Below, one piece after another: positions 15,022 through 33,817 of a stretch of DNA of 64,000 nucleotides. The DNA comes from Paratractidigestivibacter sp. (lineage in GTDB: Bacteria; Bacillota_I; Bacilli_A; Erysipelotrichales; Erysipelotrichaceae): assembly GCA_963607765.1 (NCBI GenBank), contig CAVDDT010000034.1, forward strand, positions 440 to 64,439, written 5' to 3'. Each line of letters opens with the position of its first letter. Within the stretch, counting starts at the first letter, position 1. A program made the translations under genes and the position numbers. The notes under the pieces were generated by a model. The model did not search any database, was not told where the DNA came from, and saw nothing but the letters and a program-made list of their open reading frames with translations.

Positions 15022-15035
15022 CGCTATAATAAATT

Positions 15036-15141
15036 TGTTTTCAGGGCAGGGTTAGATTCCCGATCGGTGGTATACCCCACGAGCGTAAGCTGAACTTGTG
15101 AGATTCAAGTGGCGACAGTATAGTCTGGATGAAAGGAGACT
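15036..15141 (+). promoter_or_regulatory. FMN riboswitch (RFN element)
   Basis: Conserved core ..ttcagggcagggt.agattcccgatcggtggtat.ccccacgagc...ggcgacagtatagtctggatgaaaggag. It lies directly upstream of ribU. A possible -10 tataat is at 15025-15030. Confidence 0.85.
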
Positions 15142-15150
15142 TTTTATTTT

Positions 15151-15741
15151 ATGAAAACTAATTCTAAAACTCACTTAATAGTGATGGTTGCGATTCTTGG
15201 GGCACTAGCAGGAGTATTAATGCTTATTGAGTTTCCCCTTGTGATTGCACCACCTTTTTATAAAGTGGATTTATCTGATGTAGCTGCACTTTTCGCAGGA
15301 TATGCACTTGGACCTGTTTGTGGCATTCTGGTATGTCTTGTCAAAATTCTTATTTCAATTATTCTAAATGGTACAACTACCGCTTTTGTAGGTGAATTTG
15401 CGGCATTTGTGATGGATGGCAGTTTTGTCTTAACGGCTTGTGTTATTTATAAGAAGCATCATAATAAAAAAGGTGCTATATATTCATTGCTATTTGGAAC
15501 TTTAATGTTAATGATTGTTGGCGGTGTTATGAACTATTTTGTGATGATTCCAGCATATGTTAAGTTTATGAACATTCCTCTTGATACTATTATCTCAATG
15601 GGTAACGCAATATTTGGCTCAGTAAATTCACTACTAACATTAGTATTATTCTGTACAGTTCCATTTAATTTAGTAAAAGGAATAATTATTAGTCTAATCA
15701 CTTATTTGTTGTATAAGAGGGTATCACCTTTAATTAAATAA
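15151..15741 (+). CDS. ribU: Riboflavin transporter, ECF S-component RibU
   Basis: 196-aa protein with about six TM segments, immediately downstream of an FMN riboswitch. Confidence 0.85.
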   Translation: MKTNSKTHLIVMVAILGALAGVLMLIEFPLVIAPPFYKVDLSDVAALFAGYALGPVCGILVCLVKILISIILNGTTTAFVGEFAAFVMDGSFVLTACVIYKKHHNKKGAIYSLLFGTLMLMIVGGVMNYFVMIPAYVKFMNIPLDTIISMGNAIFGSVNSLLTLVLFCTVPFNLVKGIIISLITYLLYKRVSPLIK

Positions 15742-15831: not shown

Positions 15832-16041
15832 GCCAATGATAAAAGAAAAATAAAGAAAGTTAATGAACTTATTAAGGATATAAAGAGAAATAATTCTAAT
15901 GGATTGGGCAAGTCTGAACTGCTGAAGGGCAATTTAAGTGGTTTGAGTTCTAGAAGAATTGATAGTAAAAATAGAATTGTTTACTATGTTGTTGATGAAA
16001 CAATTTTTATTGTGCCTTGTAAAGGGCATTACGATAACTAA
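15832..16041 (+). pseudogene. N-terminally truncated YoeB/Txe-family toxin remnant
   Basis: Open frame ANDKRKIKKVNELIKDIKRNNSNGLGKSELLKGNLSGLSSRRIDSKNRIVYYVVDETIFIVPCKGHYDN*. It is collinear with YoeB (..DKK..KKINELIKDI.R.PF.G.GKPE.L...L.G.WSRRI...HRLVY.V.....I..C..HY). A TAA lies immediately upstream (15829-15831) and there is no in-frame start, so about 20 N-terminal residues are missing. Confidence 0.7.
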
Positions 16042-16046
16042 AATAA

Positions 16047-16080
16047 ATGGCTATTAAGAAAACTTAATAGCCATATTTTT
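16047..16080. terminator. Bidirectional terminator (perfect 12-bp hairpin)
   Basis: ATGGCTATTAAG (16047-16058), aaaa loop, CTTAATAGCCAT (16063-16074). T-runs are present on both strands. Confidence 0.85.
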
Positions 16081-16645
16081 ATTTAAGATTGTTGTTAGTT
16101 TTTTCTAGCGAATCTTTGGTTTTATCAAGAACTTTGATAATCGCATCAAGTCCTTTATCTGCGATAGTTAACGCACTCTTTTTTACGTTATAAATAGTTT
16201 TTTGTGTTTCTTCGCTGTTTATAAAATCAACCACATTGTTTTTTAGATTGATTGCCATATTAGTGGCGTTTTTAACATTTTCATTTTCCAAGAATTTTTC
16301 CATAGTACTTTTTGAAGCACTTTCTTCTTCTTGAATTTTAATGTATTCGGCATTATTGCTTGGGGCAATTTCTTCAAATTTAGCGAATGCATATGCAGCA
16401 GCCTTGTTGCACTTTTCTTCTACTCTGTCTAAGAATTTATCAAGTTCTTCTTCATCGCTAATTCTATCTACTACACTCTTTAGCTTAACTGAGGCCTCAG
16501 TGATTGTGTCGATAGTCTTATCAGAAATTGTTTTTATTTTTAATGCTGTTTCTTCATCAACGTTTTTAATTTTCTCACTTGCGACTTTGTTGATGTCAGA
16601 AGTGATGTCTTGCATCTTCTTTATAGTATTGTCAAATCTAGCCAT
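16079..16645 (-). CDS. Hypothetical all-helical protein (188 aa)
   Basis: Strong SD (ggaggtgcatt-ATG) and a terminator at the 3' end. The sequence is charged with heptad-like character and has no TM segment. No family recognised. Confidence 0.6.
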   Translation of the reverse strand: MARFDNTIKKMQDITSDINKVASEKIKNVDEETALKIKTISDKTIDTITEASVKLKSVVDRISDEEELDKFLDRVEEKCNKAAAYAFAKFEEIAPSNNAEYIKIQEEESASKSTMEKFLENENVKNATNMAINLKNNVVDFINSEETQKTIYNVKKSALTIADKGLDAIIKVLDKTKDSLEKTNNNLK

Positions 16646-16698
16646 AATGCACCTCCATAAATATTATAACCCATTAAAAATAATGTATAATAACAATT

Positions 16699-17667
16699 AT
16701 GAGAAGAAGACCTGGATTTGATTTTGGCGGAATATTTTTCCTATTCATTTTAATAGGAAGTTTTGGCGGCATTTTAGTTTCTGGATTACTATCTTTACTT
16801 GCGATAGTTGTTCCGGTTGGAATTATTGGCTATGCCATTTATAAATTGGTTGGAAACAAGAATACTAGCAGTGGCAACAGTTCGGTAAATGTGAATAAGA
16901 ATTATGGTGATTCGATAAGAAAGAATGTGAATAACACTTATGTTAGTAATATGAGTGTTCCTGAACTAAATAAAATCGATAAGAAACTTACATCTTATTT
17001 TAAGAATAGTGTTTCTTTGCCTGTAATTGATACTGTTTCTTTAACTACTCAATCAGGAAAGTTTACAACTGTTGATCAACTTTATTTAACTTATAAAGAT
17101 GAGAAGATATGCAAACTTGCGGAATTTAAACAAAAATTTCCTGATGTTTATAAGAAGATTATGGAATTGTTATTGGTGTTCTCTTCTAAGAGCGACGATG
17201 TCTTAAAGGCTAATGTTGAAACTAACGAAATTAAACAAGAGGATAAGCTTTCTGATGCCGACAAGTATATCAATAAGATTGATGAATTAAATAGAGCCAT
17301 TCCTCAAGAAGAGATCACAAATGGCTTGTATCAAACTTGTGATTTGTTAAAGAAGATTGATGTTTTAAGCGAGACACATAGCGATAATAATAAGATTTCT
17401 AAGCTATATGATTATTATTTGCCTATTTTAACCGGTGCTCTTGAAAAGTATAAGAAGCTTCAGGATGCGCCTGTTCATGGCGATGAATTTAAAGAGTGTG
17501 AGGCTTCTTTGATTAAGACGATTGTGCTTATTAACGAGGCTTTAAAGACTATTTGTTCAAGCATGCAAGAAGATGATTATATGAATATTAATGCCGATAT
17601 TAATACTTTGCAAAGCTTGCTTAAAAAGGATGGATATGGTGAGGATCCTTTTGGAGATAAGAAATAA
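16699..17667 (+). CDS. Membrane protein with XpaC-like (5-bromo-4-chloroindolyl phosphate hydrolysis protein family) C-terminal domain
   Basis: Two N-terminal TM helices (FFLFILIGSFGGILVSGLLSLLAIVVPVGIIGYAIY). The C-terminal ..YDYYLPILTGALEKYKKLQ...INADINTLQSLLKKDG resembles the XpaC family. Confidence 0.6.
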   Translation: MRRRPGFDFGGIFFLFILIGSFGGILVSGLLSLLAIVVPVGIIGYAIYKLVGNKNTSSGNSSVNVNKNYGDSIRKNVNNTYVSNMSVPELNKIDKKLTSYFKNSVSLPVIDTVSLTTQSGKFTTVDQLYLTYKDEKICKLAEFKQKFPDVYKKIMELLLVFSSKSDDVLKANVETNEIKQEDKLSDADKYINKIDELNRAIPQEEITNGLYQTCDLLKKIDVLSETHSDNNKISKLYDYYLPILTGALEKYKKLQDAPVHGDEFKECEASLIKTIVLINEALKTICSSMQEDDYMNINADINTLQSLLKKDGYGEDPFGDKK

Positions 17668-18242
17668 TGGCTGATCAAGATATTTATAAATTAGTTGAAC
17701 AATTAAATAAGAATAAAATTTCGGATAACACAAAGATTGATGAAATCTATAATTTGCTTGATTCTTTAAAAGATGATGAGGGCAATAAAAGCGAGATTAA
17801 ATTAACAACTGGTGAAGATAAGGCAGAATCTAGTGAGGATAAAAAGAGAACTACTACTTTAAGAGATTTAAAGGGTTCGGTTTTGCCTATTAAAAAACCT
17901 TCTTTTCCAAGTGAAATAAGAGCTTTTGAAAATAGGAGTGATTGTTTCTTTAATATTCTTAGTGAGGTCGATTATGGAAGCAAGAATAACGAGGATTATG
18001 TAAAGGGGCATAAGACTGCGCTTGAAAAATACTATACTGTTGTTAGAAATAATAATAAAGATTTATATGTTGTTGAAGGACAAGTTAATGATGAACTTGC
18101 TTCTTTTGTGACTAACAAGCTTAGCAATAACTACAACAAGGGCTACTATGATGGACTTGAGTTTGTGTTAAACGCTTTATATAAGTCTAAGGATTTGATT
18201 AGCAAGAAGATATATCAGGAATTATTGAAAGAGTTGGGATAA
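17667..18242 (+). CDS. Hypothetical protein (191 aa)
   Basis: The start overlaps the upstream stop (taATG) and the stop overlaps the downstream start in the same way. No motif recognised. Confidence 0.5.
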   Translation: MADQDIYKLVEQLNKNKISDNTKIDEIYNLLDSLKDDEGNKSEIKLTTGEDKAESSEDKKRTTTLRDLKGSVLPIKKPSFPSEIRAFENRSDCFFNILSEVDYGSKNNEDYVKGHKTALEKYYTVVRNNNKDLYVVEGQVNDELASFVTNKLSNNYNKGYYDGLEFVLNALYKSKDLISKKIYQELLKELG

Positions 18243-20215
18243 TGGATAAGAGTGAAAGAGAAAAGCTTATTGATGAGGTTTTAAATAAGAGAAGAACTTA
18301 TTCTATGGATGAGTCCTTGAAGATTATTAATGATACCGAGAAGGAACTTAATCGTTTGCTTAGTGATAATAAGAAGGGCATTGATGATTTGGTTAAGGAA
18401 AACAATGATTCTAATTATTTGAGTAATTTAAAGAGCCAAATGGAAAAAGACTTTGATACTAAGATTGAGACTCCTGAAACAGTAGTAGTTGGAAAAGGTT
18501 CGAAAGAGATTTTTGATAAGATTAACGAAGAATTAAAGAAGACTATTATTGGACAAGATGATGCTTGCGATAAGATTACTATGGCTTTTAGAAGGCCTTA
18601 TGTTGTTGGTTCTAATCCTTCTTTAATTAGAAATTCTATTATCGTATATGGTAATAATGGAACTGGCAGACATTTGCTTGTTAATACGATGGGCAAGCTT
18701 CTTTATGAAAATGGTTTAACTATTTCCAGTGAAGTAGCTATTCTTGATATGAAGAGATATCAATCGAGCAGTCAGGAAATTCTTTTCTTACAAGATTTAT
18801 ATGTAGCTTTAAGTGGTAGAAATCCAATTATTTTAATTGAGAACTTTAAAGAAAGTTCTTCTATTTATACAAGAATGCTTAATGAATTAGTTCTTGAGGG
18901 AAGATGTTTACTAAACCAAAGATATACTTTCGTGAATAATCAGCTTCAAGAGGCTACTAGTAAATTAAGTAAGGATGTGATTGATCATCTTGATGGCAAT
19001 AATAAAACTTTAGTGTTTGTTTCTGAAGATAGTCCAAGCAAGATAATGGATATTTTTGGCAAGGCTTTTATCGAAAAGATTGAGGATAAGGTTGAGACGG
19101 TTAAATTATCTGATGATGCACTTGATAGAATTATTGATAATCTATTAAAGGATTTAGAAACTAAAAGCGAGACTCAATTTGAGATGGATGTAGTGATTGA
19201 TGATAGCTTGAAAACTTATTTGAAAGAGAATTATGAGCCTAATGATGGAATTGATTCACTTACGCCAATTATTGATAAGATATATAACAGCTTAGTTAAT
19301 ATCGCTTTAAAGAATGATAATGTTGATACTTTAAAGCTTATGTATAAGGATTCTATTAAAGCTGTTTTCAATGAAAACGAAGTAGAGCTTGATATCGATG
19401 ATGATAGTTCTAAGGAAAGAGAAGAGATTCAAAAAGAATTAGATGAGATAGTTGGTCTTAAAAATGTTAAGGATTATCTTTTGTCTTTAGAGAATCATAT
19501 TAAGATTACTCAAATTAGAAAACAAAAGGGTTTAAAGACTTCTGAAGTTAGTAAACATATGATTTTTACTGGCAATCCTGGTACTGGTAAGACAACCATT
19601 GCCCGTATTGTTTCACGTATGATGAAGGCTTGTGGCATCCTTAAACAAGGACAGCTTGTTGAGGTTACTCGTGCTGACTTAGTTGGCAAATATGTTGGAC
19701 ACACTGCTCCTTTGACAATGGATATTATAAATAGTGCACTAGGCGGTGTGTTGTTTATTGATGAAGCATATTCATTATATAGAGGAAAAGATGATTCATT
19801 TGGTCTTGAGGCTATCGATACTTTAGTAAAGGGCATGGAAGATCATCGTGATGATTTAATTGTTATTTTGGCTGGTTATTCTAAGGAAATGGAAGAGTTT
19901 TTAACGGCTAATAGTGGGTTGAAGTCTAGATTTGCGAATATTATTCATTTCGATGATTATACTGGCGAGGAGATGATGCTTATTTCAAAGAGCATTGCTA
20001 AGGGCAAGGGCTATGCTATTGCGGATGAGGCAATTAAGCCTTTAACTGATTACTATACAATTATTCAGGGCAAAGATGATCCAAATAGTGGTAATGGTAG
20101 ACTTGCTAGAAATAAGGTTGAAGAGGCTATTTTAAAACAATCAAAGCGTTTGCTTGATAATCCTAATGATGATATTAGTGAATTAAAACTAGAGGATTTT
20201 GATTTAGGAGAATAA
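18242..20215 (+). CDS. Tandem AAA+ ATPase: degenerate Clp-D2-like module plus SpoVK/CbbX-like active module
   Basis: Module 1 has IIGQDDACDKITMAFRRP, Walker-A-like GNNGTGRH (18650-18673) and Walker-B position ILIEN. Module 2 has VGLKNVKDYL, Walker A GNPGTGKTT (19571-), Walker B VLFIDEAY and ..ILAGY...SRF. Confidence 0.8.
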   Translation: MDKSEREKLIDEVLNKRRTYSMDESLKIINDTEKELNRLLSDNKKGIDDLVKENNDSNYLSNLKSQMEKDFDTKIETPETVVVGKGSKEIFDKINEELKKTIIGQDDACDKITMAFRRPYVVGSNPSLIRNSIIVYGNNGTGRHLLVNTMGKLLYENGLTISSEVAILDMKRYQSSSQEILFLQDLYVALSGRNPIILIENFKESSSIYTRMLNELVLEGRCLLNQRYTFVNNQLQEATSKLSKDVIDHLDGNNKTLVFVSEDSPSKIMDIFGKAFIEKIEDKVETVKLSDDALDRIIDNLLKDLETKSETQFEMDVVIDDSLKTYLKENYEPNDGIDSLTPIIDKIYNSLVNIALKNDNVDTLKLMYKDSIKAVFNENEVELDIDDDSSKEREEIQKELDEIVGLKNVKDYLLSLENHIKITQIRKQKGLKTSEVSKHMIFTGNPGTGKTTIARIVSRMMKACGILKQGQLVEVTRADLVGKYVGHTAPLTMDIINSALGGVLFIDEAYSLYRGKDDSFGLEAIDTLVKGMEDHRDDLIVILAGYSKEMEEFLTANSGLKSRFANIIHFDDYTGEEMMLISKSIAKGKGYAIADEAIKPLTDYYTIIQGKDDPNSGNGRLARNKVEEAILKQSKRLLDNPNDDISELKLEDFDLGE

Positions 20216-20713
20216 ATGCGTTTAATTAAGCTTTGGGATAGTGATTTAAATAAGGCGTATCAGTTGCATCAAGAGATTGGCTTAGATGAAAATGGGTTTT
20301 CAAATAGCGCCAATGGAATTGATTTAAAAGCATTTAGGGAATATGTCTATGATAAAAAGTATAGAGAAACAGGTGAGAGACTGCCTAATGGTTTTGTGCC
20401 TGATACAACATATGTTTTAGAGAATGATGATGGGGAATATGTTGGTGTTTTTAATTTACGTCATTATTTAAATAAGTTTTTAGAAAATGGTCCTGGGCAT
20501 ATTGGTTATGCGATTTCAAATAAGTATAGAAAAATGGGCTATGGCACCAAGGGCTTAGCTCTTACTTTAATTGAGGCTAAAAAATTAGGCATTGATGTGG
20601 CTTATATGAGCTGTTACAAAGATAATATTGGCAGTTTAAAGGTTCAACTTAATAATGGTGCTTATATTGATAGAGAAGATGATTTTTCTTATTATACTAA
20701 GGTTAAGCTATAA
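20216..20713 (+). CDS. GNAT-family N-acetyltransferase
   Basis: 165 aa, with the acetyl-CoA-binding segment ..GHIGYAISNKYRKMGYGTKGL.. Confidence 0.75.
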   Translation: MRLIKLWDSDLNKAYQLHQEIGLDENGFSNSANGIDLKAFREYVYDKKYRETGERLPNGFVPDTTYVLENDDGEYVGVFNLRHYLNKFLENGPGHIGYAISNKYRKMGYGTKGLALTLIEAKKLGIDVAYMSCYKDNIGSLKVQLNNGAYIDREDDFSYYTKVKL

Positions 20714-20731
20714 TACTAAAGGGAGTTGTTG

Positions 20732-22615
20732 ATGGGGATTAAGGATACTGGCAAATCTATTTTAAAGTTGTTTGATAAAGAAGATGAAGTTTTTGCGGAA
20801 AATGAAACACAGGCTAATAAGCTTGTTGCTTCCTCAATGCTCCTTTTGTGCATCATTTTAATTGTATGCATAATTCTTAATAATTTAGGCATTTTTCAAA
20901 ACGATATAGATTCTTATAATACTGTTATTTCTCATAGTATTATTGAGCTTTTTATTCCGTTTATATTATGTTGTTTCTTTAAAGGACAAAAGAAATGGTT
21001 GAAGTATTTCCTATTGCTTGAGATGACGGTTGTTTTCGCAAGAATTGATTGTTCACTTGGTTATAATGTTACTTTGATAATGGCTATTCCGGTTGTTCTT
21101 TCATGTAGATATTTTTCAAGTAAGTTCACAATAGTTATTGCGGTAGTTACTGCTTTATTGTTTGGACTATCTAGTTTTGCGAATGCATACTGGGACATGG
21201 GTGTCTTTGATTTAAATTTTTATAGCTTACCTGCTGGCACAGTTTTAGATAGCAGCGTTAGTGTTATTGAGGCAATTAAAAAGATAGGCATTGATGTTCC
21301 TACTAGGGTCTATCAAATGATGGTTTTAAACTATGGGTCTAAATTGTTTGTTTTCTTTATCATTACTGTAATTTGTGTGAGAATTGCTCAAACTGGCCAT
21401 GACATGGTTTTAAAACAAAGATATGTCACTAAAAAATCAATGCGTATTGAATCTGAGCTTAATTTAGCTACTAATATTCAAGCTCACATGCTTCCTAATA
21501 TTTTTCCTGCTTTTCCAGACGACAATGAATTCGACTTATATGCAAGCATGAAACCTGCTAAGGAAGTCGGCGGCGATTTCTATGATTTTGATAAACTTGA
21601 TGATACTCATTTAGCCTTAGTTATTGCGGACGTTTCGGGAAAAGGTATTCCAGCAGCGTTGTTTATGGTTATTGCCAAGACAATAATTAAAAACGAATTG
21701 CACATGGGCTATTCGCTTGAACAAGTTCTTTCTAAGGTTAATCATATGCTTTGTGAAGGCAATACCGATGGCATGTTTGTTACTGCTTGGGTTGGTGTTT
21801 TTGATGTTGAAACGGGTATTTTAGAATATGTTAGTGCTGGACATAATCCTCCATGTGTTCTCCAAGATGGGAATTATCATTTATTAAAGAGCAAGCCTGG
21901 ATTTGTTTTGGCGGGCTTAGATGGCGTTATGTATCATAGGCAATCAATCACATTAAGCCCAGGTGATAAAATATTCTTGTATACTGATGGTGTTACTGAG
22001 GCTATTGATAAAGATGAAAACATGTATGGTGATCAGCGCTTGCTTGAATATATGAATGCCCACAAGGACTATGGTCCTAAAGAAATGATTAATGGTGTTA
22101 AAGGTGATTTAAGCAATTTTGCGCTTGGTACCGAGCAGTTTGATGATGTTACGATGTTGATGATGGAATATAAAAAGAAAAAGGAAGTGGTTCATATGAA
22201 AGAGAAAGAGTTTAATCTTCCAGAGAATACGGTTGATGATGTTTTGAAATATATTGAGACAGAATTAAACGCTGTTAATTGTCCGATTAAGGCTCTTCAA
22301 CAAATTCTTATTTGCACAGAAGAAATTTTTGTGAATATTGCTAGTTATGCTTATGCAAATAAAAATGGTAAGGTTTTATTGGCTACTTCTATTGATGAAA
22401 ATAAGGCAGTTATTCAATTTAAAGATTCCGGTGTTCCATTTAATCCTCTCGAGATGAAGGATCCTGATGTTACTTTATCCGCTAAGGAAAGAGATGTTGG
22501 CGGTCTTGGAATTTATATAGTTAAGAAGGTAATGGATGAGGTTAATTATACTTATCAAAATGGATGTAACATTCTAACTATTGGGAAGGAATATAAAGAT
22601 GGATGTGTTAGATAA
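20732..22615 (+). CDS. Polytopic membrane PP2C (SpoIIE/RsbU-type) phosphatase fused to an RsbW/SpoIIAB-type HATPase kinase domain
   Basis: The TM region spans about the first 225 aa. PP2C motifs are GGDFYDF, VIADVSGKGIPAA, TDGVTEA and FDDVTMLMM (about 21443-22174). The HATPase has N-box EEIFVNIASYA, DSGVPFNP and GGLGIYIVKK (about 22208-22615). ATG at 20732 follows SD aaagggag; the ORF track starts at TTG 20726. Confidence 0.85.
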   Translation: MGIKDTGKSILKLFDKEDEVFAENETQANKLVASSMLLLCIILIVCIILNNLGIFQNDIDSYNTVISHSIIELFIPFILCCFFKGQKKWLKYFLLLEMTVVFARIDCSLGYNVTLIMAIPVVLSCRYFSSKFTIVIAVVTALLFGLSSFANAYWDMGVFDLNFYSLPAGTVLDSSVSVIEAIKKIGIDVPTRVYQMMVLNYGSKLFVFFIITVICVRIAQTGHDMVLKQRYVTKKSMRIESELNLATNIQAHMLPNIFPAFPDDNEFDLYASMKPAKEVGGDFYDFDKLDDTHLALVIADVSGKGIPAALFMVIAKTIIKNELHMGYSLEQVLSKVNHMLCEGNTDGMFVTAWVGVFDVETGILEYVSAGHNPPCVLQDGNYHLLKSKPGFVLAGLDGVMYHRQSITLSPGDKIFLYTDGVTEAIDKDENMYGDQRLLEYMNAHKDYGPKEMINGVKGDLSNFALGTEQFDDVTMLMMEYKKKKEVVHMKEKEFNLPENTVDDVLKYIETELNAVNCPIKALQQILICTEEIFVNIASYAYANKNGKVLLATSIDENKAVIQFKDSGVPFNPLEMKDPDVTLSAKERDVGGLGIYIVKKVMDEVNYTYQNGCNILTIGKEYKDGCVR

Positions 22616-23174
22616 GGCTATTGAGTTTGCCACAAAAGCTCACTCTGGCCAAGTTCGTAAGCTTGCCAATACACCATATATCTTGCATCCAATGGAGGTT
22701 GCTGCTATCATTTCTACTCTTACGAGTGATAAGGAAACAATGGCTGCTGGTCTTCTACATGATACGGTTGAGGATTGTAATATTGATCCATTAACTATTT
22801 ATAAGGAATTTGGCAAAAGAGTATATGGCCTAGTATTAAGTGAGACTGAAGATAAGCTAAGTGATAGGCCTGCTAGTGAGACTTGGATGGAGCGCAAGGA
22901 AGAATCTCTTTTGATGCTTGAAAATACTAAGGATGAACATGTACGTATCTTGTGGCTTTCAGATAAGTTATCTAACATGCGTTCATTCTATCGTGAGTAT
23001 CTTAAACATGGTGATGACATTTGGAATAGTCTTAATCAAAAAGATCCTTCTAAACAAGAATGGTATTATCGCTCAATCGCGAAAAGTTTAGTTAGTTTAA
23101 AAGATAGTGCAGCATATATAGAGTATGTTGAACTTGTTGATAAAGTATTTGGAAAGGAAAACAAACATGGATAG
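22599..23174 (+). CDS. HD-domain protein of the RelA/SpoT hydrolase-only type ((p)ppGpp-hydrolase-like)
   Basis: ..AIEFATKAHSGQVRK...PYILHPMEVA...AAGLLHDTVEDC.. ATG at 22599 follows ggaagga. It overlaps the upstream gene by 17 nt. Confidence 0.8.
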   Translation: MDVLDKAIEFATKAHSGQVRKLANTPYILHPMEVAAIISTLTSDKETMAAGLLHDTVEDCNIDPLTIYKEFGKRVYGLVLSETEDKLSDRPASETWMERKEESLLMLENTKDEHVRILWLSDKLSNMRSFYREYLKHGDDIWNSLNQKDPSKQEWYYRSIAKSLVSLKDSAAYIEYVELVDKVFGKENKHG

Positions 23175-24333
23175 TGTTAATGAGAATGGCGTACTTACTG
23201 TTTATTTAGAGGGACGTATCACGGCTGATAATTCTGCTGATGTTGGAAAAGAGATTGAGGAAATTCTTGAAAAAGAGCCTCACAATGAGCTTGTTTTCAA
23301 TTGTGGCAAGCTAGAATATATTGCTAGTGCCGGACTTCGTGTAGTTCTTCGTACCAAGAAAAAAGAACCAGCTTTAAAGATGGTTGATGTTAAAAGTGAA
23401 GTATATGACATCTTTGAAATGACTGGTTTTACAGAAATGATGGATATTGAAAAGGCATATCGCGAAATTTCTGTCGATGGTTGCGAAGTAATTGGACAGG
23501 GTTCAAATGGCAAGGTATATCGAATTGATCCAGATACTATTGTCAAAGTGTTTTTTAATTCAGATGCCTTAGCTGATATTCATAGAGAAAGAGAGTTAGC
23601 TAGAACAGCGTTTGTATTGGGTATTCCCACTGCTATTTCATATGATGTAGTTAAGGTTGGCGACACTTATGGTTCAGTATTTGAACTTCTTAATGCGAAT
23701 AGTTATATCAAAGAGATTATTAAAGATCCTAGTAGTATTGATAAATATATAAAGCTTTCAGTGGATTTGTTGAAGAAGATTCATGCGACTAAGGTAAAGC
23801 CTGGCGAATTGCCTGATATTAAGCTAACTGTCTTGGGATGGGTTGATTATTTAAAGGATTATCTTCCAGAGGATAAATACAACAAGCTTAAGAAGATGGT
23901 TGAGGATGTTCCTGATACAAATACAATGATTCATGGTGATTATCATATGAAGAATTTGATGATTCAAGATGGTGAAACACTTCTAATTGATATGGATACA
24001 CTTGCACAAGGCCATCCAATATTTGAACTTGGCAGTGTATTTAATGCTTATGTTGGATTCTCAGAACTTGATCATAATAACTGCTTGGGTTTCTTGGGTA
24101 TCCCATATGAACAATGTGAATATATTTGGAATAAAACACTTCCTTTATATCTTGATACTACTGATGATAAGAGAATTAAGGAAGTTGAGAATAAGGCTAG
24201 AATAGTAGGCTATACTCGTTTAATGAGACGTACTATTAAACGATTGGGTTTTGAAAAAGCTGGCGATAGTATAGAGTTTTATAAAGAAAACTTAATGAAA
24301 TTAATTGATGAAGTTGACACACTTGTGTTCTAG
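23167..24333 (+). CDS. STAS (anti-sigma-antagonist-like) domain fused to an APH/choline-kinase-fold kinase domain
   Basis: The STAS part is ..LEYIASAGLRVVL.. (Ser codon at 23326-23328). The kinase part has IGQGSNGKVYR, VKVF, HGDYHMKNLM and LIDMD. ATG at 23167 follows aaaggaaa and overlaps the HD gene by 8 nt. Confidence 0.8.
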   Translation: MDSVNENGVLTVYLEGRITADNSADVGKEIEEILEKEPHNELVFNCGKLEYIASAGLRVVLRTKKKEPALKMVDVKSEVYDIFEMTGFTEMMDIEKAYREISVDGCEVIGQGSNGKVYRIDPDTIVKVFFNSDALADIHRERELARTAFVLGIPTAISYDVVKVGDTYGSVFELLNANSYIKEIIKDPSSIDKYIKLSVDLLKKIHATKVKPGELPDIKLTVLGWVDYLKDYLPEDKYNKLKKMVEDVPDTNTMIHGDYHMKNLMIQDGETLLIDMDTLAQGHPIFELGSVFNAYVGFSELDHNNCLGFLGIPYEQCEYIWNKTLPLYLDTTDDKRIKEVENKARIVGYTRLMRRTIKRLGFEKAGDSIEFYKENLMKLIDEVDTLVF

Positions 24334-24345
24334 AAAGAGGATAAT

Positions 24346-24642
24346 ATGACAATTGATAATGTTAAAGATGGAGAAACACTTACTTTAAAACTTACTGGTA
24401 GACTTGATACCACTACTGCTCCTGAGCTTGAGGCTGCAGTAAATAGAGAGGTTGATGGAATCAAGAATGTAGTGCTAGATATGGAAAAACTTGAATATGT
24501 TTCTAGTGCTGGTTTGCGTGTATTGCTTTCTATTCAAAAGAAGATGGCTGACAATGGAACATTTGTCTTAAAGAATGTTTGTGATGAAATCAAAGAGGTA
24601 CTAGATATCACTGGTTTCTCTTCATTCCTTACTATTGAGTAA
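24346..24642 (+). CDS. Single-domain STAS protein (anti-sigma factor antagonist family)
   Basis: 98 aa, with ..LEYVSSAGLRVLL.. carrying the conserved phosphorylatable Ser (24505-24507). SD agagga. Confidence 0.85.
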   Translation: MTIDNVKDGETLTLKLTGRLDTTTAPELEAAVNREVDGIKNVVLDMEKLEYVSSAGLRVLLSIQKKMADNGTFVLKNVCDEIKEVLDITGFSSFLTIE

Positions 24643-24686
24643 AGTTTATTAGAGGACTGGTCGAAAGACCATGGTCTACACTATTG

Positions 24687-24712
24687 GCGGGTAAGACACC
24701 CGCTTTTCTTTT
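24687..24712 (+). terminator. Rho-independent terminator closing the 16699-24642 block
   Basis: GCGGGT (24687-24692) / ACCCGC (24698-24703), followed by ttttctttt. Confidence 0.8.
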
Positions 24713-24717
24713 ATCTT

Positions 24718-24726
24718 TGTTATAAT
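24718..24726 (+). promoter_or_regulatory. Extended -10 promoter element (TGtTATAAT) 6 nt upstream of the mnmE ATG
   Basis: tgt at 24718-24720, tataat at 24721-24726, ATG at 24733. There is no SD in between. Confidence 0.45.
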
Positions 24727-24732
24727 AGTTTT

Positions 24733-26043
24733 ATGCTTAATGATACTATTTGTGCTATTAGTACTAGCTTAAAAGAAGGCGCTATTTCGATTGTTAGAAT
24801 GTCTGGTGAAGACAGTTTTAGTATTATTAAAGAAATTAGTGATATCAAGAAGATAGAAGCCAATACCATCAAATATAGTCATATCTATGATAATGGTGAA
24901 GTTGTGGATGAAGTGCTTATTTCTTTTTTTGTTGGGCCTAAGTCTTATACAAGAGAAGATATGGTTGAGATTAATTGCCATGGTGGCGTATTTGTCACAA
25001 GGATGATTCTTAATCTTTTATTAAGCAATGGGGCTAGACTTGCGACTCCTGGCGAGTTTACTAAAAGAGCTTACCTAAATGGCAGAATTGATTTAAGTGA
25101 GGCTGAAAGCAGTAATGATTTAATTAAGGCAACCAATTACTTACAAGCCAAGAGCGCTATTAAGGGCGTTGATGGCTCTATTGAGAAACTTTTAAATCCT
25201 ATTATGAATGAGATGAAGAATGTTATTTCGATGATTGAAGTAAACATTGATTATCCTGAATATGATGATGTAGAGATTATGTCTAATGAAAAGGTTAAGC
25301 CATATGTTCATAAATGGATAGAAGAAATGGAGACAATGATTGATAAGGCAAGCCGTTTTAGGGTAGTAAAAGATGGTATTAAGACTGTTATTATCGGTAA
25401 GCCTAATGTTGGCAAAAGTAGCTTACTAAATGCACTGTTAAAACAAGATAAAGCAATTGTTACTGATATTGCTGGCACTACAAGAGATTTGGTTGAGGGA
25501 GATGTTAATCTTGATAATGTTTCGTTAAGATTAATTGATACTGCTGGTATTAGAGATAGTGATGATAAGATTGAACAAATTGGTATTGAAAAAAGTAAAG
25601 AGGCTTTAAAGGAAGCTGATTTAGTTTTGTTGGTGATTGATGGTTCAAATATTGATGAAAAAGATGAAGAACTAATTAAGTTAACAGAAGGCAAGAAGAG
25701 AGTTATCATCTACAATAAAAAAGATTTGGTTAAAAAAGATGGCATTAATATTAGCGCCAAAGATGGTGATATAGAGGCTTTGACTTCTTATTTGAATAAT
25801 GAATATAAAGATGATATTTCTTTAGTTAATGAAGATATTTTGAATAATGAAAGGCAAATTTCTTTGATGCGTAGAGCTTTAAGCGAATTAAAAGAGATGC
25901 TTAAGGATTTTGATAACGTTTCTCTTGATGTGGTAATGCTTGATTTAGAAGAAAGTTTCCATTATTTATGTGAAATATTAGGAAGGGAATATAAGGAGGA
26001 TTTAATCGACCATATGTTTAAAAACTTCTGTTTGGGTAAATAA
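24733..26043 (+). CDS. mnmE: tRNA modification GTPase MnmE
   Basis: G-domain motifs GKPNVGKSS, DTAGIR and NKKD, plus the conserved C-terminal C-x-G-K (FCLGK). Confidence 0.93.
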   Translation: MLNDTICAISTSLKEGAISIVRMSGEDSFSIIKEISDIKKIEANTIKYSHIYDNGEVVDEVLISFFVGPKSYTREDMVEINCHGGVFVTRMILNLLLSNGARLATPGEFTKRAYLNGRIDLSEAESSNDLIKATNYLQAKSAIKGVDGSIEKLLNPIMNEMKNVISMIEVNIDYPEYDDVEIMSNEKVKPYVHKWIEEMETMIDKASRFRVVKDGIKTVIIGKPNVGKSSLLNALLKQDKAIVTDIAGTTRDLVEGDVNLDNVSLRLIDTAGIRDSDDKIEQIGIEKSKEALKEADLVLLVIDGSNIDEKDEELIKLTEGKKRVIIYNKKDLVKKDGINISAKDGDIEALTSYLNNEYKDDISLVNEDILNNERQISLMRRALSELKEMLKDFDNVSLDVVMLDLEESFHYLCEILGREYKEDLIDHMFKNFCLGK

Positions 26044-32710: not shown

Positions 32711-33817
32711 TTATTTCCTTAATAGAGGCATACTCATACAATGAGGGCCACCTCTTCCTTTCAATAATTCTTTTGAAGGTATAGTGTAAATAGTTGAGCC
32801 TTCATTTAGATATTTTTCATTTGTTGTTTTATTTATGTCGTAAACGATGAATTTATTTGGAGCTATGCAAAGTGTATTGCAAGCATCATTCCATTGTTCA
32901 AGAACTTCATTGTTTTTATTTCCACAAGTAATTATTTTAATGTCATCTAGTTTTAATAAGTTCTTTAATGTCTCTTCTAGTGAATCGTTAATATCAGTAA
33001 CTCCATCTTTAGTAATTAATTTTAGTTTTAACACTTGTCTGATTTCATCGAAGATAATAAATTTATTGGTGTCAAATCTTGTGAATACAGTATCTAGATG
33101 CATACAAGATCTCTTTGATGGAATTTCCATTACCAAGATATTTTTAATTTTCTTGTCTTTGTTTAAGATATTGTGGGCAAGCTTATATGCAGCATCAAAT
33201 GTTGTTCTCTCTGATTGACCTATAGCGATTGTATTTTCATCTAGTAATAAGACGTCACCACCTTCAATCATGTATTCTTCATCTCTATTATAGTAAACAT
33301 CTAGTTTAAAGTCCTTATGATACTTATTGATGTATTTTCCATAGATTACTTCGTTATTTCTTACTTTGGTATGCATATGATATAGTGCTATACCGTTTCC
33401 AATGATAGTAAAAGGATCTCTTGTAAAGTAAAGATTTGGCATTGGCATTAATTTGTTGTCCATACCAGACATTGTGTATTCAACTAGTTGCTTATTATCT
33501 TTAATAGCTAATAGTTCATCATAGTATTCAGCTAAATTACAATTTTGATCATTTAGGTATTCTTTGATAAATTCTTCTTTAGCATCTATATTTTCTAATA
33601 CCTCTGCCATTAAATCAGTTAGATAATATACTTCTACTCCATTTTCTCTTAAGATATTGGCAAAGATATCGTGTTCTTTTTGAGCAATCTTTAAATCAGG
33701 AATTTCATCATACAAGTATTCTTGCATATTATCTTTTGTAAGATAAGAAAGCTCTTTTCCTGGTCTATGTAATAACACCTTATTTAGTGTTTTAATTTCA
33801 TTTTCTACTTTTATCAT
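32711..33817 (-). CDS. arcA: Arginine deiminase-family protein (short form, 368 aa)
   Basis: N-terminus ..LNKVLLHRPG.EL.. and C-terminal catalytic-Cys motif GGPHCMSMPLLR. Confidence 0.72.
   Translation of the reverse strand: MIKVENEIKTLNKVLLHRPGKELSYLTKDNMQEYLYDEIPDLKIAQKEHDIFANILRENGVEVYYLTDLMAEVLENIDAKEEFIKEYLNDQNCNLAEYYDELLAIKDNKQLVEYTMSGMDNKLMPMPNLYFTRDPFTIIGNGIALYHMHTKVRNNEVIYGKYINKYHKDFKLDVYYNRDEEYMIEGGDVLLLDENTIAIGQSERTTFDAAYKLAHNILNKDKKIKNILVMEIPSKRSCMHLDTVFTRFDTNKFIIFDEIRQVLKLKLITKDGVTDINDSLEETLKNLLKLDDIKIITCGNKNNEVLEQWNDACNTLCIAPNKFIVYDINKTTNEKYLNEGSTIYTIPSKELLKGRGGPHCMSMPLLRK

What the first reader, a model, noticed from the sequence alone, without database searches (positions are those of the whole stretch)
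16699..24642. Gap-free eight-gene block linking an XpaC-like membrane protein, a tandem AAA+ ATPase, a GNAT and a sigma-less partner-switching set
Seen: eight same-strand genes run from ATG 16699 to the stop at 24642. Their junctions are -1, -1, 0, +18 (+12 if TTG 20726 is used), -17, -8 and +12 nt. I see no hairpin/T-run terminator inside the block. Strong terminators sit just outside it (perfect 12-bp hairpin at 16047-16080; GC hairpin plus T-run at 24687-24712). Content in order: (1) a 2-TM protein with an XpaC-type domain; (2) a 191-aa protein with no recognisable motif; (3) a 657-aa double AAA+; (4) a GNAT; (5) a polytopic PP2C phosphatase fused to an RsbW/SpoIIAB-type kinase; (6) an HD RelA/SpoT-hydrolase-like protein; (7) a STAS domain fused to an APH-fold kinase; (8) a single-domain STAS. 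Established: PP2C, HATPase_c_2 kinase and STAS form the partner-switching triad that normally controls a sigma factor. Inference: no sigma factor is encoded in or next to the block. The output is therefore likely enzymatic, through the fused kinase, the alarmone-type hydrolase, or possibly the AAA+/GNAT. I do not recognise this combination as a described system.
Basis: partly seen in the sequence, partly recalled or inferred. Interest (0 to 1): 0.85.

Follow-up and report, generated by a model that had tools for sequence, protein, structure and literature searches.

The report
Composite operon, not one system
The eight back-to-back genes are real and probably share one transcript in this gut Erysipelotrichaceae bacterium, but about 165 related loci show they are three unrelated pieces: a family-wide membrane-protein/AAA+ ATPase trio, a stray acetyltransferase, and a widespread self-contained signalling cassette that works without a sigma factor.

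Summary
Eight same-strand ORFs run from 16699 to 24642 with the stated junctions. The domain calls are right, terminators flank the block, and no sigma factor gene lies nearby.

The interpretation as one linked system does not hold. The XpaC-like protein, the 191-aa protein and the two-module AAA+ form a trio conserved in all 80 Erysipelotrichaceae species loci recovered. None of 58 informative loci carries the partner-switching genes downstream of the AAA+. That position, before mnmE, is a variable slot of -5 to 8453 nt holding unrelated cargo or nothing. The GNAT occurs in only two other species.

The four-gene set (PP2C-RsbW kinase, HD_4 alarmone-type hydrolase, STAS-APH kinase, STAS) is an independent cassette. 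It was found in 84 other gut and rumen loci in unrelated contexts. None of these has the XpaC-like protein, the GNAT or a g3 orthologue, and no sigma factor recurs among 117 neighbours. In 12 of the 84, the RsbW-like domain is fused to STAS-APH.

Most likely the cassette is a sigma-less partner switch whose output is the STAS-fused kinase. The trio is a separate membrane-anchored AAA+ module of unknown role. Neither is described in the literature I could search. Each is a variant of a known kind, not a new eight-gene system.

The parts
16079..16645 (-). m188: 188-aa all-helical, amphipathic soluble protein. It is transcribed divergently from g1 and is a conserved companion of unit A.
   Evidence: ORF. 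tblastn detects it at least at 40% coverage in 35 of the 80 loci. A profile search finds it in up to 48 loci, a few of which are false hits caused by a contaminant row in the alignment. It is also present (E=2e-56) at the syntenic locus L172, which lacks the AAA+. No Pfam or NCBIfam family. Only weak apolipoprotein-like PDB hits.
16684..16691 (+). TGTATAAT -10 element ending 7 nt before the g1 ATG, with no SD. Probable promoter of a leaderless unit-A transcript.
   Evidence: Sequence. The same (T)TGTATAAT-N7-ATG arrangement is conserved in about 15 orthologous loci, whereas the most distant clade has a leader with an SD.
16699..17667 (+). g1: membrane protein. It has an N-terminal MRRR motif and a hydrophobic hairpin, a conserved middle domain (about residues 85-165), and a C-terminal XpaC/Halogen_Hydrol-type helical domain (168-302).
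   Evidence: Pfam. Alignment A4. Present in 79 of 80 loci.
17667..18242 (+). g2: orphan 191-aa protein. The N-terminal half is variable or disordered. The C-terminal half is a conserved four-helix domain (motifs VDYG..N..YVKGH..AL.KYY and KGYYDGL.YV).
   Evidence: Alignment A2. AF2 model pLDDT 75, with 80-94 in the C-terminal domain. No PDB fold match. Only 62 representatives among 1.84 billion proteins. In other lineages it is fused to the N-terminal half of g1.
18242..20215 (+). g3: 657-aa two-module AAA+. D1 (about 85-350) is ClpB-D2-like with a degenerate Walker A (GTGRH, Lys to Arg) and an ENF motif in place of DE. D2 (396-653) is a canonical SpoVK/CbbX/EccA-class AAA+ (GNPGTGKTT, LFIDEAY, pore loop KYVGH).
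   Evidence: Alignment A1. 80 species loci at 44-82% identity.
20216..20713 (+). g4: GNAT acetyltransferase, a clade-specific add-on after the AAA+ gene.
   Evidence: Pfam. Homologues follow the AAA+ only in L009 and L012.
20732..22615 (+). g5: polytopic membrane sensor fused to a PP2C (SpoIIE-type) phosphatase and an RsbW-type HATPase_c_2 Ser kinase. First gene of the partner-switching cassette.
   Evidence: Nearest solved structure is the Rv1364c phosphatase-kinase (3KE6). The same TM-PP2C-HATPase architecture occurs in L087, L122 and L133.
22599..23174 (+). g6: single-domain HD_4 hydrolase of the RelA/SpoT type (small alarmone hydrolase class).
   Evidence: Pfam 75 bits. PDB SAH entries 7QOE and 4YF1 at E about 1e-21. 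Adjacent to STAS-APH in 23 of 44 fully flanked cassette loci.
23167..24333 (+). g7: STAS domain (phosphorylatable Ser54 in IASAGL) fused to an APH/choline-kinase-fold kinase (GQGSNGKVYR, IVKVF, HGDYHMKN, IDMD). Defining gene of the cassette and its likely output.
   Evidence: The 120 best hits all have the STAS+APH architecture.
24346..24642 (+). g8: single-domain STAS protein with Ser54 aligned to the phospho-Ser58 of SpoIIAA.
   Evidence: HMMER alignment to 1AUZ.
24686..24712 (+). GC-rich hairpin plus T-run: the intrinsic terminator that ends the block. mnmE follows with its own TATAAT-N6-ATG.
16047..16074 (.). Perfect 12-bp bidirectional hairpin that terminates m188 and the upstream + strand genes.

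Best explanation
The eight genes form one probable transcription unit in this species. Evolutionarily and functionally they are a composite of three independent units.

Unit A (m188 divergent, plus g1, g2 and g3) is a family-wide Erysipelotrichaceae module. It comprises a membrane-anchored XpaC-like protein, a small helical partner that is fused to the N-terminal half of g1 in other lineages, and a SpoVK-class AAA+ with a degenerate first ring. It is expressed from a conserved promoter as a leaderless mRNA. Inferred mechanism: g1 and g2 form a membrane-bound adaptor that recruits the AAA+ unfoldase or remodeller to an envelope-associated substrate.

Unit B (g4) is a GNAT picked up in one small clade.

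Unit C (g5-g8) is a self-contained, sigma-less partner-switching cassette that landed in the variable slot between the AAA+ gene and mnmE. Inferred mechanism: the membrane sensor g5 sets the phosphorylation state of Ser54 on the two STAS domains through its opposing RsbW-type kinase and PP2C domains. The unphosphorylated STAS binds the kinase domain, and the free STAS (g8) competes with the STAS of g7. The output is the activity of the APH-fold kinase fused to STAS, acting on an unknown substrate. The co-conserved alarmone-type hydrolase g6 either resets a nucleotide pool or reverses the kinase product.

Shown here: the anatomy, the domain identities, the conservation patterns and the fusions. 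Inferred: all the biochemistry.
For: Unit A is a separate, conserved unit.
- g1 and g3 are adjacent in 79 of 80 species loci (the 80th is truncated). g2 is present in 62 of 80.
- The g3-to-mnmE gap ranges from -5 to 8453 nt. Eight species have 100 nt or less. Elsewhere the gap holds PTS genes, a nitroreductase, lipoproteins, a histidine kinase and other cargo.
- phmmer with g5-g8 finds nothing in the slot ORFs.
- In L019 the cassette sits upstream in another order: STAS, PP2C-HATPase, HD, STAS-APH.

Unit C is an independent cassette.
- The same gene order occurs in L087 between histidine phosphatases and citrate synthase. Variants occur in L088-L090.
- Among 44 fully flanked loci, 30 have HATPase_c_2, 15 PP2C, 23 HD_4, 27 a free STAS and 12 an SDF transporter. 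None has XpaC or the GNAT.
- STAS-APH-HATPase_c_2 fusions occur in 12 of 84 loci and one was confirmed by Pfam.
- No sigma family appears among the listed families of 52 upstream and 65 downstream neighbours.

Functional competence of unit C.
- Catalytic motifs are intact by direct reading.
- STAS Ser54 aligns to SpoIIAA Ser58.

Coupling within unit A.
- Proteins that join the TM and middle domain of g1 to the g2 domain exist (P0296, P0311, P0325 and others). One sits at the syntenic m188/mnmE locus.
- TGTATAAT-N7-ATG is conserved before g1.

One transcript in this species.
- Junctions of 18 nt or less, SD sequences or overlapping or abutting junctions at the internal genes, a terminator only at 24686, and a leaderless-type promoter on the next gene.
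Against: - No expression data exist, so co-transcription and the leaderless start are inferences.
- The genome scan returned only the best 80 of 344 relatives, with 10 kb or less of flank. A looser regional linkage of cassette and trio within Erysipelotrichaceae cannot be excluded. L019 has the cassette 1.7 kb from m188.
- One rumen contig (L109) has a different SpoVK-class AAA+ directly upstream of a cassette.
- The substrates of the APH-fold kinase, the HD_4 hydrolase and the AAA+ are unknown.
- HD_4 is present in only about half of the cassettes and PP2C in about a third. The core mechanism may therefore differ between variants. Some loci have STAS-APH with HD_4 only.
- The g1 hit to Pfam XpaC is 0.8 bits below the curated cutoff.
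Confidence: 0.8

Rival explanations
1. All eight genes form one integrated system in which the partner-switching module regulates the XpaC-like/AAA+/GNAT half, or is regulated by it.
For: - The genes are gap-free and co-directional, with no internal terminator.
- L019 has the cassette within 2 kb of the trio's divergent partner.
- L109 has a SpoVK-class AAA+ directly upstream of a cassette.
Against: - 0 of 58 informative loci have the cassette downstream of the AAA+, and 1 of 49 upstream.
- 0 of 84 cassette loci have XpaC, the GNAT or a g3 orthologue.
- The L109 AAA+ shares only the generic AAA core with g3 (42% over residues 398-581).
- The slot holds unrelated cargo in other species.
Confidence: 0.07
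2. The cassette is a conventional RsbW/RsbV-type module whose HATPase_c_2 domain sequesters a sigma factor encoded elsewhere in the genome.
For: - HATPase_c_2 matches RsbW and SpoIIAB models (NCBIfam E=3e-9 to 6e-6).
- The STAS domains are closest to SpoIIAA.
- L089 has a sigma-70 family gene 5 kb away on the other strand.
Against: - No sigma family recurs among 117 immediate neighbours of the cassette, nor within about 4 kb upstream or 10 kb downstream here.
- The kinase is fused to PP2C or to STAS-APH, as in the non-sigma systems SypE and Rv1364c (PMC10120452).
- RsbW and SpoIIAB scores are far below the equivalog cutoffs (36 against 145 bits).
Confidence: 0.1
3. g6 and g7 form a toxin-antitoxin or anti-phage pair. 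An APH-fold kinase toxin would be neutralised by a small alarmone hydrolase, by analogy with toxSAS-SAH pairs, and gated by the partner switch.
For: - Bacterial SAHs are best known as antitoxins of toxic alarmone synthetases (PMC9765508).
- The overlapping g6/g7 junction of -8 nt suggests tight coupling.
- HD_4 is the only partner of STAS-APH in some loci.
Against: - No PADLOC hit for g5-g8.
- No RelA/SpoT synthetase domain nearby.
- HD_4 is absent from about half of the cassettes.
- Neighbours are housekeeping or transport genes, not mobile or defence genes.
Confidence: 0.04
4. Unit A is an instance of a named AAA+ system: sporulation SpoVK, the type VII secretion chaperone EccA, or the Rubisco activase CbbX.
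For: The best NCBIfam hits are SpoVK (306 bits), EccA (256 bits) and CbbX (246 bits) over the D2 module.
Against: - All three scores are far below the equivalog cutoffs (423, 467 and 459 bits).
- The hits cover only residues 383-650.
- D1, the partners g1, g2 and m188, and the synteny with mnmE have no counterpart in those systems.
- No T7SS, Rubisco or sporulation genes are nearby.
Confidence: 0.03

Closest known systems
SypE/SypA of Vibrio fischeri (and similar non-sigma partner switches such as HsbR/HsbA and SiaABC)
   Same: One polypeptide carries both an RsbW-type Ser kinase and a PP2C phosphatase. It acts on a single-domain STAS protein. The output is not a sigma factor (PMC10120452, PMC4517449, PMC8256260).
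   Different: - Here the sensor is a polytopic membrane domain rather than a receiver domain.
- A second STAS is fused to an APH-fold kinase.
- An HD_4 hydrolase is co-conserved.
- The cassette occurs in Firmicutes and has no polysaccharide or c-di-GMP genes attached.
Rv1364c of Mycobacterium tuberculosis (PAS-PP2C-RsbW kinase-STAS fusion; PDB 3KE6)
   Same: It is the best solved-structure match of g5 (E=4.6e-13). It has the same PP2C plus HATPase_c_2 arrangement, with its STAS substrate linked by fusion.
   Different: - Rv1364c fuses STAS to the kinase-phosphatase itself and is tied to SigF.
- Here STAS is fused to an APH-fold kinase or is free.
- No sigma factor is linked.
RsbU/RsbV/RsbW-SigB and SpoIIE/SpoIIAA/SpoIIAB-SigF of Bacillus
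   Same: All three domain families are present and the phosphorylatable STAS serine is conserved.
   Different: - No sigma gene lies in or beside the cassette, here or in 84 other loci.
- The kinase is never a stand-alone gene followed by a sigma gene.
XpaC-TelA pair of Bacillus and Enterococcus (envelope-stress and daptomycin response)
   Same: g1 has an N-terminal membrane hairpin and a C-terminal Halogen_Hydrol/XpaC-type helical domain. XpaC affects membrane phospholipid organisation in E. faecium (PMC6811118).
   Different: - No TelA gene is adjacent.
- g1 carries an extra middle domain.
- Its partners are g2, an AAA+ and m188.
- The window protein scores just below the Pfam cutoff.
SpoVK/CbbX/EccA class of AAA+ ATPases (AAA plus AAA_lid_6)
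   Same: The D2 module is a canonical member of this class, with intact Walker A and B motifs and pore loop.
   Different: - It has an additional degenerate ClpB-D2-like first module.
- Scores are below all three equivalog cutoffs.
- Partners and context differ.
Small alarmone hydrolases (for example PDB 7QOE and 7QOC, Lmo0812 4YF1, Mesh1, XccSAH)
   Same: g6 is a single-domain HD_4 protein with the HD and ED motifs. It matches solved SAHs at E about 1e-21.
   Different: It is embedded by overlapping junctions between a partner-switch kinase-phosphatase and a STAS-fused kinase. I found no description of this context.

Membership tests
   0 of 58 loci have the cassette downstream of the AAA+ and 1 of 49 upstream, among 80 species loci. 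0 of 84 cassette loci have XpaC, the GNAT or a g3 orthologue.
   The sequence is compatible: junctions of 18 nt or less, a terminator only at 24686, and promoter-like elements at 16686 and, weakly, around 20708. No RNA data are available.
Partner-switching system (RsbU/RsbW/RsbV type) | PP2C (SpoIIE-type) phosphatase domain with its metal-binding Asp motifs. | tested here: met
   PF07228 at 170 bits over the full model length. GGDFYD, ADVSGKG, TDGVTEA and FDDVT motifs read.
Partner-switching system (RsbU/RsbW/RsbV type) | HATPase_c_2 Ser kinase / anti-sigma-type domain. | tested here: met
   PF13581 at 73.6 bits. N, G1 and G2 boxes are readable.
Partner-switching system (RsbU/RsbW/RsbV type) | STAS antagonist with the conserved phosphorylatable serine. 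| tested here: met
   g8 and g7 Ser54 (SSAGL and ASAGL) align to SpoIIAA Ser58.
Partner-switching system (RsbU/RsbW/RsbV type) | A cognate sigma factor encoded with the module. | tested here: not met
   No sigma family from holB to argS. None appears among the listed families of 52 upstream and 65 downstream cassette neighbours.
Partner-switching system (RsbU/RsbW/RsbV type) | Reversible STAS phosphorylation and a change of binding partner. | not testable with these tools
   Needs biochemistry.
XpaC / Halogen_Hydrol (PF10112) | Domain match at or above the curated score. | tested here: inconclusive
   The window protein scores 29.0 bits against a cutoff of 29.8. Orthologues score 42.1 bits (L058), 23.4 bits (L077) and 18.6 bits (L070).
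XpaC / Halogen_Hydrol (PF10112) | Pairing with a TelA/YaaN gene, as in Bacillus and Enterococcus. | tested here: not met
   No TelA family among the neighbours. The partners are g2, g3 and m188.
SpoVK (TIGR02881), EccA (TIGR03922), CbbX (TIGR02880) | Equivalog score reached. | tested here: not met
   306 against 423, 256 against 467, and 246 against 459 bits. Only the D2 module is matched.
Tandem (type II) AAA+ | Two AAA modules, each with Walker A and B motifs. | tested here: inconclusive
   D2 is canonical. D1 is detected only by weak ClpB, ClpA, Torsin and DolB hits. It carries GTGRH and ENF in place of GK[ST] and DE, invariant in 10 orthologues.
Small alarmone hydrolase (RSH hydrolase-only) | Single HD_4 domain with the HD and ED motifs and no synthetase domain. 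| tested here: met
   PF13328 at 75 bits. 191 aa long. Aligns to 7QOE including HP...LHD(T/S)VED.
Small alarmone hydrolase (RSH hydrolase-only) | Hydrolysis of (p)ppGpp or (p)ppApp. | not testable with these tools
   Needs an enzyme assay.
TIGR02172 family (APH-fold paralogues) | Score at or above the curated cutoff. | tested here: not met
   116.7 bits against 228.2. The Pfam APH domain is met at 46 bits against 23.
Known anti-phage defence systems (PADLOC) | Component-specific profile hits. | tested here: not met
   Only generic AAA hits for g3 (DolB 40 bits, IetA 28 bits). Nothing for the other eight proteins.

The most novel reading that the evidence does not exclude
The STAS-APH / RsbW-like kinase / HD_4 cassette may be an undescribed signalling circuit of gut and rumen Firmicutes. 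In this reading, a partner switch gates a small-molecule kinase, possibly acting on a nucleotide, and its product is removed by the co-encoded alarmone-type hydrolase. That would amount to a new second-messenger-like pathway rather than a transcription switch. Separately, the XpaC-like/g2/AAA+/m188 module may be a lineage-specific membrane-remodelling or membrane-extraction machine.
Probability: 0.15. Interest if true: 0.8.

Novelty: new variant of a known kind. Interest (0 to 1): 0.4.

Why it matters
It corrects an attractive but wrong reading. Tight packing without terminators does not make a system, and here it results from insertion into a variable slot.

The work also isolates two cleanly bounded, uncharacterised modules that can each be tested alone.

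1. A partner-switching cassette whose conserved output is a STAS-fused APH-fold kinase, often with a small alarmone hydrolase. It is abundant in gut and rumen Firmicutes and has no linked sigma factor. I found no literature on it. It would extend the known non-transcriptional outputs of partner switching, and could give bacterial small alarmone hydrolases a physiological context other than antitoxin.

2. A family-wide Erysipelotrichaceae module next to mnmE. It pairs an XpaC-type membrane protein with a SpoVK-class AAA+. XpaC proteins are implicated in membrane-antibiotic tolerance but have no known mechanism.

Tried and rejected
- g2 as a Vps4-type MIT domain. A profile-to-PDB hit at E=0.12 suggested it. 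The AF2 model (pLDDT 75) gave no MIT match, nor any other match below E=0.7, in Foldseek against the PDB. Rejected.
- Structure of g1 from a single sequence. pLDDT was 46.6, unusable, so no fold search was run.
- Profile searches of g1 and m188 against PDB sequences gave nothing significant.
- L109 as a second link between the AAA+ and the cassette. Its AAA+ shares only the generic core with g3, so I treat it as an anecdote.
- L172/L175 as a third case of the cassette near the trio. The upstream STAS belongs to a plain PP2C-STAS pair without APH or HD_4.
- The apparent '204/389/147/98/422 aa' gene series in the slot of L022 and relatives looked like a split cassette. It is a nitroreductase, an M24 peptidase and PTS IIA/IIB/IIC.
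- A defence-system reading: PADLOC was negative.
- Organism names for the closest cassette relatives: the cluster look-up returned no names.
- Literature: no paper mentions TIGR02172, or STAS-APH together with an alarmone hydrolase, or XpaC together with an AAA+.
- The first Rfam scan of related loci exceeded the size limit and was repeated on fewer loci.

Full report
OBSERVATION. The window is a 32% GC stretch of an uncultured Erysipelotrichaceae genome. The same locus occurs on MAG contigs GCA_963599075, GCA_964470575 and others. The ORF list and the independent gene calls on those contigs give eight + strand genes:
- g1 16699-17667
- g2 17667-18242
- g3 18242-20215
- g4 20216-20713
- g5 20732-22615
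- g6 22599-23174
- g7 23167-24333
- g8 24346-24642

ATG 20732 is the credible g5 start, because the SD AAGGGAG ends 6 nt upstream and TTG 20726 abuts it. The only convincing terminators are the 12-bp bidirectional hairpin at 16047-16074 and the GC hairpin at 24686-24704 with its T-run. Internal terminator-like hits are weak and lie in coding sequence. The 16047 hairpin does not abut the block: a minus-strand gene, m188 (16079-16645), lies between them.

DOMAINS. Pfam and NCBIfam confirm every call.
- g1: Halogen_Hydrol/XpaC at E=1.2e-6, 29.0 bits against a cutoff of 29.8. The orthologue in L058 reaches 42 bits.
- g2: nothing.
- g3: a canonical AAA plus AAA_lid_6 module at 396-653. The best named hits, SpoVK, EccA and CbbX, are all far below their equivalog cutoffs. 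The N-terminal half matches ClpB/ClpA D2, Torsin and the ClpB-like DolB only weakly. Its Walker A is GTGRH and its Walker B position reads ENF, invariant in ten orthologues. So D1 is a degenerate, probably non-hydrolysing, AAA module.
- g4: a GNAT.
- g5: several predicted TM segments in its N-terminal third, then SpoIIE/PP2C (170 bits) and HATPase_c_2 (74 bits). Its best solved relative is the phosphatase-kinase of M. tuberculosis Rv1364c.
- g6: a single-domain HD_4 protein matching solved small alarmone hydrolases at E about 1e-21.
- g7: STAS plus an APH-fold kinase with the Gly-loop, Lys, HGDxxxxN and DxD motifs.
- g8: a STAS protein.

Ser54 of g8 aligns with the phospho-Ser58 of SpoIIAA, and g7 carries the same SAGL motif. 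No sigma-factor family is present among the called genes from holB to argS.

IS THE BLOCK A UNIT? I scanned one genome per species (GTDB representatives) with an alignment of g3 orthologues. This gave 344 relatives. The best 80 loci, all Erysipelotrichaceae-type MAGs or isolates, share 44-82% identity with g3. tblastn and profile searches with all window proteins gave the following.
- g1 sits directly upstream of g3 in 79 of 80 loci. The 80th contig is truncated.
- g2 lies between them in 62 of 80. It is missing in the most distant, Solobacterium/Lactimicrobium-like clade.
- An m188 homologue is nearby: 35 of 80 by tblastn and up to 48 by profile. The profile count includes a few false hits from a contaminant row in the alignment.
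- g5-g8 homologues are absent downstream of g3 in all 58 loci that either reach mnmE or extend at least 4.5 kb.
- The distance from g3 to mnmE ranges from -5 to 8453 nt, and eight species have 100 nt or less.
- Where the slot is filled, it holds unrelated cargo: nitroreductase, M24 peptidase, PTS IIA/IIB/IIC, lipoproteins, a hybrid histidine kinase, a 5'-nucleotidase-like protein.
- The GNAT follows g3 only in L009 and L012.
- Only L019 has the partner-switching genes within 10 kb. There they lie upstream of m188, in the order STAS, PP2C-HATPase, HD_4, STAS-APH, and are separated from the trio by a rhomboid gene and two other genes, one of them homologous to the window's ECF/RibU-type transporter gene.

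THE CASSETTE ELSEWHERE. g7 belongs to a large, well-conserved family. The best 120 clusters, at 59-100% identity, all have the STAS+APH architecture and are 387-399 aa long. They are annotated at most as 'TIGR02172 family' or 'anti-sigma factor antagonist' from Clostridiales or Eubacteriales MAGs. Four contexts were looked up by exact protein:
- L087: PP2C-HATPase / HD_4 / STAS-APH / STAS, between histidine phosphatases and citrate synthase.
- L088: SDF / STAS / PP2C-HATPase / STAS-APH.
- L089: SDF / STAS / stand-alone HATPase_c_2 / HD_4 / STAS-APH.
- L090: SDF / Cache-PP2C-HATPase / HD_4 / STAS-APH / STAS.

A metagenome scan added 80 loci. Among the 44 loci of the 84 (80 scanned plus the four looked up) that have enough flank:

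| Component | Loci of 44 |
|---|---|
| HATPase_c_2 | 30 |
| PP2C | 15 |
| HD_4 | 23 |
| Free STAS | 27 |
| SDF transporter | 12 |
| XpaC-like | 0 |
| GNAT | 0 |

. In 12 of the 84 loci the RsbW-like domain is fused to the C-terminus of STAS-APH, and Pfam confirmed this for L113. A Pfam census of the gene immediately upstream (52 loci) and downstream (65 loci) of the cassette lists no sigma-70 family. SDF was the most frequent family upstream (9) and GMP synthase downstream (5). So g5-g8 is a self-contained cassette with interchangeable sensor modules (polytopic TM, Cache or none) and a constant core of STAS-APH plus an RsbW-type kinase and/or HD_4.

ANATOMY OF THE TRIO. A TGTATAAT element ends 7 nt before the g1 ATG, and there is no SD. 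The same (T)TGTATAAT-N7-ATG is conserved in about 15 orthologous loci, whereas the distant clade has a leader with an SD. g1 is therefore probably translated from a leaderless mRNA, which fixes the start of the transcription unit. mnmE, just after the 24686 terminator, has the same TATAAT-N6-ATG design, as do four other genes in the window.

g2 is an orphan. It has 38 word-indexed hits and 62 representatives among 1.84 billion proteins. Its AF2 model (pLDDT 75) shows a confident C-terminal four-helix domain with no PDB fold match. The exhaustive search also found 261-312 aa proteins in which the N-terminal hairpin and middle domain of g1 are fused directly to the g2 domain. One of them (L172/L175) sits at the syntenic position: m188-like divergent, then a 248-aa protein, the fusion protein and an aldose epimerase, then mnmE-tatD-x-pth-mfd. 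That locus has no XpaC domain and no AAA+. This is Rosetta-stone evidence that g1 and g2 work together. It also shows that the oldest core is m188 plus the membrane protein, with the XpaC-type domain and the AAA+ being later additions in Erysipelotrichaceae.

MECHANISM (inferred).
- Unit C. g5 senses a membrane-associated signal and sets the phospho-state of Ser54 on g7 and g8 through its opposing kinase and phosphatase domains. As in known partner switches, unphosphorylated STAS binds the kinase domain. The free STAS g8 competes with the STAS of g7. The output is the APH-fold kinase domain of g7, whose substrate is unknown. g6 removes an alarmone or the kinase product. I put about 0.5 on this outline.
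- Unit A. g1 and g2 form a membrane-anchored adaptor for the g3 unfoldase, with m188 as an amphipathic-helix partner, acting on the envelope. XpaC is linked to membrane phospholipid organisation and daptomycin tolerance in E. faecium (PMC6811118). I put about 0.3 on this.
- That the block is a composite rather than one system: about 0.8-0.85.

COMPARISON AND NOVELTY. Sigma-less partner switches with a fused kinase-phosphatase are known, for example SypE/SypA (PMC10120452, PMC4517449), STAS-only proteins (review PMC8256260) and Rv1364c (PDB 3KE6). The cassette is therefore a new variant of a known kind. Its distinguishing features are the STAS-APH fusion and the linked small alarmone hydrolase. 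Full-text searches found nothing on these. Bacterial SAH physiology beyond antitoxin roles is said to be poorly characterised (PMC9765508). The trio is a lineage-specific variant combining an XpaC-type protein with a SpoVK-class AAA+, and I found no literature on that either. The eight-gene 'system' itself is not a real entity.

DEAD ENDS.
- The MIT idea for g2.
- The single-sequence model of g1.
- PDB profile searches for g1 and m188.
- PADLOC.
- The cluster name look-up.
- The apparent AAA+/cassette link in L109, which is a generic AAA core only.
- The upstream STAS in L175, which belongs to a plain PP2C-STAS pair.

Noticed in passing
window 16684-16701; also 24719-24735 and starts at 33817(-), 46232, 48548(-), 54913: Six of 60 genes in the window have TAnAAT 6-7 nt upstream of the ATG and no SD, which suggests leaderless mRNAs. 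For g1 the TGTATAAT-N7-ATG arrangement is conserved in about 15 other species, while the most distant clade has a leader with an SD.
   Followed up: partly
P0296, P0309, P0311, P0313, P0319, P0320, P0325, P0337; L172/L175 10001-10855: Proteins of 261-312 aa fuse the N-terminal membrane hairpin and middle domain of g1 directly to the g2 domain. In L175 this gene sits at the syntenic m188/mnmE locus, without an XpaC domain or an AAA+. In L171 it is followed by an Rce1-like (CPBP) protease.
   Followed up: partly
L113 8001-9554, plus L126, L129, L142, L144, L151, L154-L157, L162, L168: In 12 of 84 loci the RsbW-type HATPase_c_2 domain is fused to the C-terminus of STAS-APH, giving proteins of 516-542 aa. 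Other loci have STAS-APH with only an HD_4 neighbour, or with no partner at all.
   Followed up: partly
L088-L090, L099, L103, L106, L110, L118, L124, L130-L132, L144: A sodium:dicarboxylate symporter family (SDF) gene recurs immediately upstream of the cassette or inside it: 12 of 44 fully flanked loci, and 9 of 52 upstream neighbours. GMP synthase is the most frequent downstream neighbour (5 of 65). Neither is near the cassette in the window.
   Followed up: no
L109 115-2055: A 646-aa SpoVK-class AAA+ (AAA plus AAA_lid_6) lies directly upstream of a HATPase/HD_4/STAS/STAS-APH cassette on a rumen contig. It shares only the AAA core with g3 (42% over residues 398-581).
   Followed up: partly
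window 24653-24701 (+): An Rfam DUF3800-XI RNA match (42.3 bits, cutoff 37.8) lies in the g8-mnmE spacer. It forms a hairpin at about 24655-24680 followed by the terminator hairpin. It was not found in seven related loci (L011, L017, L019, L020, L043, L054, L087), and no DUF3800 gene is nearby.
   Followed up: partly
window 15033-15144 (+): An FMN riboswitch (95.5 bits) lies in front of the ECF/RibU-type transporter gene 15151-15741. The same arrangement is present in L011.
   Followed up: no
window 15904-16041 (+): A 45-aa ORF matches the C-terminal half of a YoeB/Txe-type toxin (…SRRIDSKNRIVYYVVDETIFIVPCKGHYDN). It appears to be a truncated toxin-antitoxin remnant between the riboflavin transporter and m188. 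The identification is by eye only.
   Followed up: no
window 18242-20215, residues 137-144 and 198-202 of g3: The first AAA module has Walker A GTGRH (Lys replaced by Arg) and ENF where DE is expected, invariant in ten orthologues. The second module is almost fully invariant, including the pore loop GKYVGHT.
   Followed up: partly
window 20708-20713: A TATAAT overlaps the GNAT stop codon, 18 nt before the g5 ATG and just before its SD. Two further 10-of-12 promoter-like sites lie at 20628-20656 and 20667-20695. Together they suggest a possible internal promoter for the cassette.
   Followed up: no
L175 1455-3106: A plain SpoIIE(PP2C)-STAS gene pair, without HATPase, APH or HD_4, lies about 5 kb upstream of the m188-like gene in a relative that lacks the AAA+.
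   Followed up: no
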